The position numbers and the translations under genes are program-made. Under the pieces are notes generated by a model. That model searched no databases. It was not told the DNA's origin and was given only the letters and a program-made list of their open reading frames with translations. Shown here in pieces: positions 56,263 to 57,694 of a DNA stretch of 64,000 bases; position 1 is the first letter of the stretch; every line of letters begins with the position of its first letter. The DNA lies in NCBI RefSeq assembly GCF_054482525.1, contig NZ_CM137006.1; one strand, given 5' to 3'.

Positions 56263-56313
56263 TGAACTGCACCCCAAATGTTGGACATAATCTGACATCT
56301 GAAGGTGCAGTTT

Positions 56314-56835
56314 ATGAAACATTCATTTGAAGTAAAACTTGCCGCTGTAAATCACTACCTGGCTGGTCATGCAGGCATCATTTCTACGGCAAAACTCTTT
56401 CAACTTTCTCACACCAGCCTCTCACACTGGATTAATCTTTTTCTTCTTCACGGTCCTCGGGCACTGGATTGCAGACACAAGCGTAGCTATTCTCCTGAAG
56501 ATAAACTTTGCGTGGTTCTTTATGCTCTCGGGCATTCTGAGTCTCTACCCCGGGTAGCTGCCCGGTTTAACATTCCCAGCCACAACACGGTTAAAAACTG
56601 GATAAAAGGCTACCGCAAATCTGGTAATGAGGCCTTTATCAGGCGCAGGAAGGAGAAAAGCATGACCCGTTCTGATGATACCCATGAAAACGAGGCAAAC
56701 ATGACGCCGGAAGAGATGAAGAATGAGCTGCGTTATCTTCGCGCAGAAAATGCATATCTGAAAGCCATGCAGGAGCATCTCCTGGAAAAAAAGCGCCAGG
56801 AGCTGGAGAAAAAACGAAAGTCATCCGGAGCCTGA
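56314..56835 (+). CDS. IS orfA (transposase N-terminal part, helix-turn-helix plus leucine zipper)
   Basis: MKHSFEVKLAAVNHYLAGHAGIISTAKLFQLSHTSLSHWINLF...; ATG at 56314 with GAAGG 8 nt upstream (track ORF starts at an upstream GTG, 56305). Ends just after an A-rich slippery run. Confidence 0.88.
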   Translation: MKHSFEVKLAAVNHYLAGHAGIISTAKLFQLSHTSLSHWINLFLLHGPRALDCRHKRSYSPEDKLCVVLYALGHSESLPRVAARFNIPSHNTVKNWIKGYRKSGNEAFIRRRKEKSMTRSDDTHENEANMTPEEMKNELRYLRAENAYLKAMQEHLLEKKRQELEKKRKSSGA

Positions 56836-56939
56836 GGTGCGGACACTGCCAGTCTGACCTGTTAAAGGCTGCAGGGCTGGCCAGAAGCACGCTGTACTAC
56901 CAGCTGTCACTGCAGAAGGCTAAGGACAAGTATGCTGAT

Positions 56940-57662
56940 GTGAAACAGCTCATAGCCTCCATCTTCCATGAACACCGGGGATGTTATGGGTACCGGCGGA
57001 TCCATTGTGAGCTTCAGAAAAGAGGTCTTAAGTTCAGTGGCAAAACGGTGCGAAAACTGATGCAACAGCTCGGCCTGAAGTCTCCTGTGCGCCTGAAGAA
57101 ATACCGGTCTTACCGGGGAAATATGGGACTCGCTGCAGAAAATATCCTTCAGCGGCAGTTCAAAGCGGAAGCTCCCTGTGAGAAATGGGTGACAGATATC
57201 ACCGAATTCAGGGCTGGCGGACAAAAACTGTACCTGTCCCCGATACTTGATTTGTTTAACGGGGAAATCGTGGCGTGGGAAACGGCCTGCAGGCCTACAG
57301 AGGAGCTGGTGAAGCGGATGTTAAATAAGGGGCTGGAAAGCCTTGCTGAAGGGGAGAAACCGCTGCTCCACAGTGATCAAGGATGGCATTACCGGATAAA
57401 AAGTTATCAGTCCGCCCTGGCGGACAGAGGGTTAGTGCAGAGCATGTCGCGCAAGGGCAACTGCCTTGATAATGCGGTAATGGAGAACTTCTTTGGTCAC
57501 CTGAAAGAAGAAATGTACTATCGCCGGGACTACAGAAATGTAGAAGAGCTGGAAAATGCCGTTAACGAATACATAACTTACTGGAATCAAAAAAGAATAA
57601 AACTCAGTCTTGGGGGACTCAGTCCGGTAGAATACCGGACTGAGCATCAAAAAGCCGGTTAA
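56940..57662 (+). CDS. IS orfB (DDE transposase catalytic domain); probably expressed as an OrfAB fusion by -1 frameshifting
   Basis: Track ORF begins at GTG 56940, but the frame is open upstream to 56727 and overlaps orfA in the -1 frame. Catalytic motifs WVTDITEF (D), LHSDQGWHY (D) and SRKGNCLDNAVMENFFGHLKEE (E). Confidence 0.88.
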   Translation: MKQLIASIFHEHRGCYGYRRIHCELQKRGLKFSGKTVRKLMQQLGLKSPVRLKKYRSYRGNMGLAAENILQRQFKAEAPCEKWVTDITEFRAGGQKLYLSPILDLFNGEIVAWETACRPTEELVKRMLNKGLESLAEGEKPLLHSDQGWHYRIKSYQSALADRGLVQSMSRKGNCLDNAVMENFFGHLKEEMYYRRDYRNVEELENAVNEYITYWNQKRIKLSLGGLSPVEYRTEHQKAG

Positions 57663-57694
57663 CTGAAACTGTCCAGGTTTTGGGGTTCAGTTCA

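What the first reader, a model, noticed from the sequence alone, without database searches (positions are those of the whole stretch)
56263..57694. IS3-family element (IS1397-like, 1432 bp) inserted in a REP palindromic unit between ssuB and pepN, with intact GTCA target duplication
Joining the two flanks restores a complete REP unit (GCCTGATAAGACGCGTCA|AGCGTCGCATCCGGC), so the IS sits exactly in the centre of a palindromic unit. That is the target preference reported for IS1397 and a few relatives, and the length (1432 bp), 25-bp imperfect inverted repeats and orfA/orfB layout fit. Both ORFs are intact and the 4-bp repeat is perfect, suggesting a recent and possibly still active copy. K-12 has no IS at this position, so this is a strain marker. 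The insertion separates the convergent ssuB and pepN 3' ends and could alter termination or read-through between them.
Basis: partly seen in the sequence, partly recalled or inferred. Interest (0 to 1): 0.6.

Follow-up and report, generated by a model that had tools for sequence, protein, structure and literature searches.

The report
IS1397 inserted in a REP hairpin
This is an intact copy of the already described E. coli insertion sequence IS1397, sitting in its known target (the loop of a REP palindromic unit) between ssuB and pepN. It is a correct but ordinary finding.

Summary
Window 56263-57694 is a 1432-bp element with 25-bp terminal inverted repeats (21/25 matching, TG...CA ends), flanked by a perfect GTCA direct repeat. 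Removing the element and one GTCA gives a sequence that exists naturally: it is identical over 3.6 kb to strain 19KM1831. The element is 100% identical to copies annotated in RefSeq as IS1397 and 99.0% identical to the E. coli CFT073 copy called IS1397 in the literature. It encodes OrfA, a canonical A_AAA_AAG -1 frameshift site and an OrfAB transposase of the IS3 family with a DDE motif.

All 12 distinct IS1397 loci I examined lie in the loop of a palindromic unit, with 2-4 bp duplications (3 or 4 bp at 11 of the 12) and both orientations.

- K-12 lacks the IS and also the whole REP cluster at this site.
- The insertion is not strain-specific: 39 of 5,426 complete E. coli genomes carry IS1397 in this same palindromic unit.
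- Those 39 carry three different junction alleles (GTCA, TCA and a third on a different haplotype), which suggests recurrent independent hits.
- The window's 4-bp allele is confined to one tight clone (PCN033, SCU-102, 19KM1776).

Effects on ssuB/pepN transcription remain untested. This is already known biology and of low interest.

The parts
56263..57694 (+). Complete IS1397 copy (IS3 family), 1432 bp
   Evidence: Length and ends. It is 100% identical over 1432 bp to RefSeq copies annotated as IS1397. It is the only copy in the window.
56263..56287 (+). Left terminal inverted repeat (IRL), 25 bp, begins with TG
   Evidence: 21/25 match to the reverse complement of the right end.
57670..57694 (+). 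Right terminal inverted repeat (IRR), 25 bp, ends with CA
56259..56262 (.). Left copy of the 4-bp target-site duplication GTCA (the original loop of the palindromic unit)
   Evidence: The natural empty site has a single GTCA.
57695..57698 (.). Right copy of the target-site duplication GTCA
   Evidence: In 31 other genomes this junction has only TCA.
56314..56835 (+). orfA (173 aa). It has two HTH_28 DNA-binding domains and a lysine/leucine-rich C-terminal segment.
   Evidence: The exact protein is indexed in 13,393 blocks of the public assembly collection.
56787..56793 (+). Programmed -1 ribosomal frameshift heptamer A_AAA_AAG, in the X_XXY_YYZ phase of orfA
   Evidence: One search gives the phase. 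PGAP annotates the CDS 56314-57662 as joined from two pieces, 'programmed frameshift'.
56727..57662 (+). orfB reading frame (-1 relative to orfA), open from 56727 with its stop codon at 57660-57662. Translated as the OrfAB fusion (449 aa), it carries HTH_21, rve and rve_2 domains. The DDE residues are D295, D355 and E391 in OrfAB numbering.
56245..56262 (.). Left half of the target palindromic unit PU4 (stem arm GCCTGATAAGACGC plus loop GTCA). Preceded by GTAG, so it appears to be the Z2 type (type assigned from memory).
57699..57713 (.). Right half of the target palindromic unit PU4 (A plus GCGTCGCATCCGGC). It lies 17 bp from the pepN stop codon.
56093..56125 (.). PU1: an unoccupied palindromic unit with the same stem and GTCAA loop as the target. 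It is part of a ~60-bp direct repeat within the REP cluster.
   Evidence: Rfam naRNA4 hits 56092-56169.
56140..56167 (.). PU2: a degenerate Y-type palindromic unit. It is absent from the commoner 3-unit haplotype, for example strain 042.
56183..56216 (.). PU3: Y-type palindromic unit (GCCGGATGCGGCGTGAACGCCTTATCCAGCCTAC)
55278..56045 (+). ssuB, the last gene of ssuEADCB. It is co-directional with the IS1397 reading frames.
57731..60343 (-). pepN, convergent with ssuB. Its stop codon lies 36 bp from the right end of the IS.

Best explanation
The region is a complete and apparently functional copy of insertion sequence IS1397 (IS3 family). It transposed into the loop of a REP palindromic unit in the cluster between the convergent genes ssuB and pepN and duplicated 4 bp (GTCA) of the loop.

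Shown here:
- the anatomy (inverted repeats, target duplication, orfA, A_AAA_AAG slippery site, orfB with a DDE motif);
- the identity to IS1397;
- the existence of the natural empty site;
- the rule that IS1397 copies sit in palindromic-unit loops.

Inferred from established IS3-family biology, from my own knowledge and not tested here:
- OrfA is made by normal translation, and the OrfAB transposase by a -1 frameshift at 56787-56793.
- OrfAB mobilises the element by copy-out/paste-in through a circular intermediate.
- Staggered cuts 3 or 4 bp apart in the loop give the duplication.

PMC1525189 cites published experiments (Wilde et al. 2003) that attribute the choice of palindromic unit to the transposase itself.

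The insertion in the window is young. The element is identical to the master copies at other loci, and the flanks are identical to an empty allele. The same palindromic unit has probably been hit more than once in the species.
For: - Ends, inverted repeats and duplication.
- Identity to RefSeq copies: 100% to copies annotated as IS1397, with full-length copies in 1,707 of 5,426 complete genomes.
- Identity to the literature copy: 99.0% to the CFT073 copy, whose flanks match Additional file 13 of PMC1525189 exactly.
- IS3 family: NF033516 at 387 bits against a cutoff of 160. Pfam gives two HTH_28 domains, HTH_21, rve and rve_2. The DDE residues are D295, D355 and E391, with 35 residues between the last two.
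- Frameshift: the heptamer is in the correct phase, and PGAP annotates a 'programmed frameshift'.
- Empty site: 600/600 and 3600/3600 identity in strain 19KM1831.
- Target rule: 12 of 12 distinct loci lie in the centre of a palindromic unit, with 2-4 bp repeats. 7,605 of 7,612 places are chromosomal.
- Literature: IS1397 is experimentally shown to insert into REP sequences (PMC1525189, PMC3184786).
- Youth of this copy: it is identical to the copies at caiF-caiE and cysE-trmL.
Against: - I made no direct comparison with the ISfinder or GenBank type sequence of IS1397. The original papers are not in the held library.
- Activity of this particular copy is inferred from its intactness, not shown.
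- No significant frameshift-stimulating RNA structure was found downstream of the heptamer (z = -0.54).
- No consensus sigma-70 promoter was found in or around the element.
Confidence: 0.96

Rival explanations
1. The element is a different IS3-family member (an IS1397 relative such as ISKpn1 or an unnamed IS) that only resembles IS1397.
For: The PGAP name is a family-level label.
Against: It is 99.0% identical over its full length to the CFT073 copy named IS1397 in PMC1525189. The only differences are 10 substitutions and a 5-bp deletion in the CFT073 pseudogene. Its length and ends are identical in all full copies. It also inserts into E. coli-type palindromic units.
Confidence: 0.02
2. The GTCA repeats are part of the element or a chance match, so the insertion is not a simple transposition into the loop of a palindromic unit.
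For: A 4-bp match arises by chance 1 time in 256. The end of the right inverted repeat (GTTCA) resembles GTCA.
Against: The natural empty allele has exactly one GTCA. Other copies have the same ends but unrelated 3-4 bp repeats.
Confidence: 0.01
3. All 39 filled ssuB-pepN sites descend from a single old insertion. The three junction forms arose later by 1-bp indels, the IS sequence differences by gene conversion, and the empty allele in 19KM1831 by precise excision or recombination.
For: - All 39 insertions are in the same orientation and the same palindromic unit.
- The flanks of the 4-bp and 3-bp alleles differ by only 2 SNPs in about 7 kb.
- The patchy IS differences (4, 12 or 14 positions, with three shared) look like gene conversion.
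- The locus has clearly moved between backgrounds by recombination. Over window 1-25000, genomes with the 3-bp allele are only 98.6-99.3% identical, and 19KM1831 is not among the top 60.
Against: This reading needs two separate 1-bp indels exactly at the IS/target junction, plus a precise excision. IS1397 naturally makes both 3-bp and 4-bp duplications, so independent insertions explain the alleles without extra events. The third allele sits on a distinct 3-unit haplotype with 97.4-97.9% identity.
Confidence: 0.3
4. The copy is an inactive fossil kept only by descent.
For: No activity assay was done. No promoter consensus was found.
Against: Both frames are open, the slippery site and DDE motif are intact, and the inverted repeats are intact. 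The element is identical in sequence to copies at several other loci and in more than 1,000 genomes. An empty allele exists with identical flanks.
Confidence: 0.1

Closest known systems
IS1397 (IS3 family; E. coli; Bachellier et al. 1997, Clement et al. 1999, as cited in PMC1525189)
   Same: The length is 1432 bp (the published length is from memory). The window element shares TG...CA 25-bp inverted repeats, the orfA/orfB layout with a -1 frameshift, and insertion into the loop of a palindromic unit with a 3-4 bp duplication. It is 99-100% identical to copies annotated or published as IS1397.
   Different: Nothing substantive differs. The insertion locus (ssuB-pepN) is not mentioned in the papers I could read. 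I did not compare the type sequence directly.
ISKpn1 (Klebsiella pneumoniae relative of IS1397)
   Same: It is also an IS3-family element that targets REP palindromic units, and the transposase determines the specificity (PMC1525189 citing Wilde et al. 2001 and 2003).
   Different: ISKpn1 targets Klebsiella-type palindromic units. The window element is IS1397 by sequence and sits in an E. coli palindromic unit.
IS621 / ISPpu9 / ISPa11 (IS110-family REP-targeting elements)
   Same: They also insert specifically in REP sequences.
   Different: They have a different transposase class (DEDD) and no terminal inverted repeats. They insert at a specific sequence beside the palindrome rather than in its loop. 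One such IS110-family element is found inside an IS1397 copy in locus L014.
IS911 / IS3 / IS150 (model IS3-family elements)
   Same: They share the OrfA / OrfAB architecture, the A_AAA_AAG frameshift signal, a DD(35)E catalytic core and 3-4 bp duplications. The shared architecture follows from the IS3-family HMM hit; the details of the model elements are from my own knowledge.
   Different: The model elements have little target specificity, whereas IS1397 is restricted to the loops of palindromic units.

Membership tests
IS3 family of insertion sequences | The transposase matches the IS3-family profile above the curated cutoff. | tested here: met
   NF033516: 387.2 bits against a cutoff of 160, covering profile positions 1-369 of 369.
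IS3 family of insertion sequences | Two consecutive, overlapping reading frames (orfA, then orfB in the -1 frame) with a slippery heptamer that produces OrfAB. | tested here: met
   orfA is 56314-56835. The -1 frame is open from 56727 to 57662. A_AAA_AAG lies at 56787-56793 in the correct phase. PGAP annotates a 'programmed frameshift'. The frameshifting itself was not measured.
IS3 family of insertion sequences | An RNase-H-fold integrase core with a DD(35)E triad. | tested here: met
   Pfam gives rve at 7e-21 and rve_2 at 2.5e-20. The DDE residues are D295, D355 and E391, with 35 residues between the last two.
IS3 family of insertion sequences | Imperfect terminal inverted repeats ending 5'-TG...CA-3', and a 3-4 bp target duplication. 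| tested here: met
   The inverted repeats match at 21/25 positions and have TG/CA ends. The duplication is GTCA. Other loci have 3-4 bp repeats.
IS3 family of insertion sequences | Copy-out/paste-in transposition through a figure-eight and a circular intermediate. | not testable with these tools
   This needs an experiment, for example PCR across abutted inverted repeats.
IS1397 (the specific element) | At least 95% nucleotide identity over the full length to the reference IS1397. | tested here: inconclusive
   The reference entry is not available here. Two indirect tests are met: 99.0% identity to the CFT073 copy named IS1397 in PMC1525189, and 100% identity to PGAP-annotated IS1397 copies.
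IS1397 (the specific element) | Insertion in the central loop of E. coli palindromic units (REP). | tested here: met
   The window plus 11 other distinct loci all reconstruct a complete palindromic unit when the IS and one repeat are removed. The natural empty site was also found.
REP / BIME (the target) | Imperfect palindromes of about 35 bp matching the E. coli palindromic-unit consensus, clustered in alternating orientation in an intergenic region at the 3' ends of genes. | tested here: met
   Four units lie between the convergent genes ssuB and pepN. PU1-PU2 reach the Rfam gathering score for naRNA4, a REP-derived RNA family (62.6 against 59.5 bits). Assignment of the Y and Z2 types is from memory of the consensus.

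The most novel reading that the evidence does not exclude
The loop of this one palindromic unit is a recurrent hot spot. IS1397 entered it independently two or three times in different E. coli lineages, always in the same orientation. This produced three junction alleles: a GTCA duplication, a TCA duplication, and GTCA on a 3-unit haplotype. Meanwhile the sequence-identical PU1, 150 bp away, is never occupied. That would imply that something beyond the palindromic-unit sequence guides target choice, such as local context, position relative to pepN transcription or replication, or bound proteins.
Probability: 0.5. Interest if true: 0.3.

Novelty: already known. Interest (0 to 1): 0.12.

Why it matters
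It matters little beyond annotation. The finding confirms that a known REP-targeting insertion sequence is present, intact and recently inserted at ssuB-pepN in the PCN033/19KM1776 clone. The presence or absence of the element and its junction allele (4-bp or 3-bp duplication) could serve as a lineage marker.

The survey adds modest population-level support for IS1397's published loop specificity: 12 of 12 loci lie in palindromic units and almost none on plasmids. It also points to a possible recurrent target. Any effect on ssuEADCB or pepN 3'-end formation is speculative.

Tried and rejected
1. I tried to read the primary IS1397 papers (PMC94167, PMC95333, PMC169884, PMC135288). None is held. 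The published length, the inverted-repeat length and the statement of a 3-4 bp duplication therefore rest on my memory plus the data gathered here.

2. I looked for a frameshift-stimulating RNA structure downstream of A_AAA_AAG (56780-56900). The minimum free energy is -36.7 kcal/mol with z = -0.54, no better than shuffled sequence.

3. The consensus promoter and terminator scan of 55950-57850 found no sigma-70-like site and one weak terminator-like hairpin inside orfB on the minus strand, fewer than in shuffles. It gives no support for or against the read-through idea. By eye I also found no convincing junction promoter formed by abutted inverted repeats.

4. I fetched eight top hits hoping for diverse loci. 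Seven were the same cysE-trmL insertion. Diversity came instead from the look-up of encoding contigs with OrfA.

5. I considered that the window is PCN033. It is not exactly: there are 2 differences in 8.6 kb. It is closest to 19KM1776, with 3 differences in 64 kb.

6. I considered an orientation bias of IS1397 relative to the palindromic unit and rejected it: 5 against 7 among 12 loci.

7. A second IS1397 copy or fragment in the window: none.

Full report
**Observation.** Reading the window directly and checking by script confirms every structural statement.

- The element spans 56263-57694 and is 1432 bp long.
- Its ends are TGAACTGCACCCCAAATGTTGGACA and, reverse-complemented, TGAACTGAACCCCAAAACCTGGACA. 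They match at 21 of 25 positions, and similarity is lost beyond position 25.
- It is flanked by GTCA at 56259-56262 and at 57695-57698.
- The left flank ends ...GTAGGCCTGATAAGACGC-GTCA. The right flank continues GTCA-A-GCGTCGCATCCGGC.
- Deleting the element and one GTCA therefore restores a palindromic unit with two 14-nt arms and a GTCAA loop.

ssuB (55278-56045, +) and pepN (57731-60343, -) flank the site.

**The empty site exists in nature.** I searched the 600-bp reconstructed empty site against 5,426 complete E. coli genomes. It is 600/600 identical to strain 19KM1831, and the identity extends over all 3600 bp fetched. GTCA is therefore duplicated target DNA. Eleven other IS1397 loci have identical IS termini but unrelated repeats, which rules out GTCA being part of the inverted repeats.

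**Identity.** The element is 100% identical over 1432 bp to copies in many RefSeq genomes that PGAP annotates as 'IS3-like element IS1397 family transposase, programmed frameshift'.

An anchor in the literature comes from Tobes & Pareja 2006 (PMC1525189). They describe an IS1397 copy in CFT073 inserted in a REP sequence and give its reconstructed target. I fetched that copy. Its flanks match their figure exactly. It differs from the window element by 10 substitutions and a 5-bp deletion, which makes the CFT073 copy a pseudogene. BLAST identity is 99.0%. I could not compare with the ISfinder type sequence, and the original IS1397 papers are not held.

**Anatomy and inferred mechanism.**

- orfA (56314-56835, 173 aa) carries two HTH_28 domains.
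- The -1 frame is open from 56727 to 57662.
- The heptamer A_AAA_AAG at 56787-56793 lies in the X_XXY_YYZ phase of orfA.
- A -1 shift there gives a 449-aa OrfAB, the same length as the PGAP product.
- OrfAB scores 387 bits on NCBIfam NF033516, IS3 family transposase, against a cutoff of 160.
- Pfam finds HTH_21, rve and rve_2.
- The catalytic residues are D295, D355 and E391, with the usual 35-residue spacing between the last two.

From general knowledge of the IS3 family (not tested here), OrfAB would excise a copy as a circle with abutted inverted repeats. It would then integrate it with cuts staggered by 3-4 bp. Work cited in PMC1525189 attributes the choice of palindromic unit to the transposase itself.

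I found no significant RNA structure after the slippery site and no consensus promoter.

**Target rule tested on data.** I used the exact OrfA sequence to pull diverse loci, and added the caiF-caiE, cysE-trmL and CFT073 yaeF-nlpE copies. That gives 12 distinct insertion sites.

- In all 12, the flanks join to a complete palindromic unit.
- The duplication is 4 bp at 7 sites and 3 bp at 4 sites. One site is ambiguous at 2 or 3 bp.
- Both Y-type and Z-type units are used.
- Orientation relative to the unit is 5 against 7, so there is no bias.
- Across all genomes, 7,605 of 7,612 matching places are chromosomal. That fits a target that is chromosomal.
- Most sites lie between convergent genes, which is where REP sequences occur.

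**Context and corrections.** The intergenic region, in its empty form, is 249 bp and has four palindromic units:

- PU1 at 56093-56125;
- PU2 at 56140-56167;
- PU3 at 56183-56216;
- PU4, the target.

PU1 has the same stem and loop as PU4 but is unoccupied.

K-12 has only a 42-bp spacer with a simple hairpin and no palindromic unit. So 'K-12 has no IS here' carries little information. The commoner haplotype, for example strain 042, has three units. Roughly 2,064 genomes cover at least 80% of the empty-site query.

IS1397 occupies this same palindromic unit in 39 of 5,426 genomes. It is therefore not a single-strain marker.

**Three junction alleles.**

- Allele a, ...GCGTCA|IS|GTCA-AGCG: three genomes (PCN033, SCU-102, 19KM1776). 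The IS is identical to the window's.
- Allele b...GCGTCA|IS|TCA-AGCG, a 3-bp duplication: 31 genomes and one metagenome assembly (L017). The IS differs at 4-14 positions, but the flanks differ by only 2 SNPs in about 7 kb.
- Allele c...GCGTCA|IS|GTCA-GCG: five records from three strains, on the 3-unit haplotype.

The window differs from 19KM1776 by 3 nt in 64 kb and is identical to it over window 1-25000. Over window 1-25000, PCN033 and SCU-102 score about one mismatch lower than 19KM1776. Allele a therefore marks one tight clone.

Genomes with allele b are only 98.6-99.3% identical over window 1-25000, and 19KM1831 is not among the top 60. The ssu-pepN segment has evidently moved by recombination.

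The simplest reading is two or three independent insertions into the same loop. A single origin followed by junction indels, gene conversion and one precise excision is less parsimonious, but it is not excluded.

- both frames, the slippery site, the DDE motif and the inverted repeats are intact;
- the element is identical to copies at other loci;
- full-length copies occur in 1,707 genomes, with up to 40 matching places (full or partial) per genome;
- an empty allele exists with identical flanks.

Activity itself is inferred, not shown.

**Effect on neighbours (speculative).** Three palindromic units remain between ssuB and the IS. The IS frames are co-directional with ssuB. pepN loses the only hairpin between its stop codon and the IS, because only half of PU4 remains. 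pepN transcripts might therefore extend antisense into orfB. No tool here can test this.

**Verdict.** This is an accurate first-stage call of a known element in its known target. It is already known biology. The only mildly new points are the apparent recurrent use of this one palindromic unit and the population figures.

Noticed in passing
L031:401-465 (E. coli K-12 MG1655, NZ_CP010445.1 4424042-4424106, between yhhI and yhhJ): K-12 has no full IS1397 copy. It still carries a 65-bp remnant of the IS1397 right end (95.4% identity to positions 1368-1432), followed directly by half a palindromic unit (TAAACGCCTTATCCGGCCTA). The remnant abuts the ISEc1/H-repeat transposase gene yhhI. About 1,780 genomes match IS1397 only partially, and every partial hit sampled is this right-end fragment. 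It looks like an old IS1397 insertion into a palindromic unit that another element truncated.
   Followed up: partly
window 56092-56169 (-): Rfam places PU1-PU2 in family naRNA4 (RF02564, nucleoid-associated noncoding RNA 4 / CssrE) at 62.6 bits against a gathering score of 59.5. This is probably a generic REP/BIME match rather than a specific sRNA gene.
   Followed up: no
window 56046-56262 plus 57699-57730; L003, L004: The ssuB-pepN spacer is highly polymorphic in E. coli. It is 42 bp with a plain hairpin in K-12, has three palindromic units in 042 and most genomes carrying the cluster, and has four in the window's haplotype. The four-unit form contains a ~60-bp direct repeat (56068-56125 and 56216-56262 plus the right flank). 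It appears in only about 35 genomes, and all but one of these carry the IS.
   Followed up: partly
L014:3562-4935 (GCA_900149875.1, LT903847.1): A 1374-bp IS110-family element (DEDD_Tnp_IS110 transposase, 358 aa) is inserted inside an IS1397 copy. It splits orfB at the HSD|QG codons of the second catalytic aspartate. An identical copy of the same element lies beside a truncated IS1397 (positions 1-1006 only) in L015 of the same genome.
   Followed up: partly
L013:2450-4240 (GCA_000692635.1): A rearranged IS1397 copy: positions 1-699, then a second copy of positions 1-305, then 766-1432. It still sits in a palindromic unit with a TTGA duplication.
   Followed up: no
window 56355, 56358, 56364 and 57047-57427 (compared with L023-L025): IS1397 copies at the same chromosomal site differ in patches. 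Three clustered changes in orfA are shared by all 3-bp-allele copies I aligned. A block of 9-11 changes in orfB is present in some copies only. This pattern suggests gene conversion between IS copies rather than gradual divergence.
   Followed up: no
window 6628-7050 (-), 44546-44619 (-), 17594-17681 (+): The routine Rfam and annotation features are as expected for this E. coli region: a cspA-type thermoregulator upstream of cspG, the PyrD leader and tRNA-Ser. The rest of the window (torCRTS, app, hya, ompA, pqi, elf fimbriae, ssu, pepN, pncB, asnS) is ordinary core genome.
   Followed up: no
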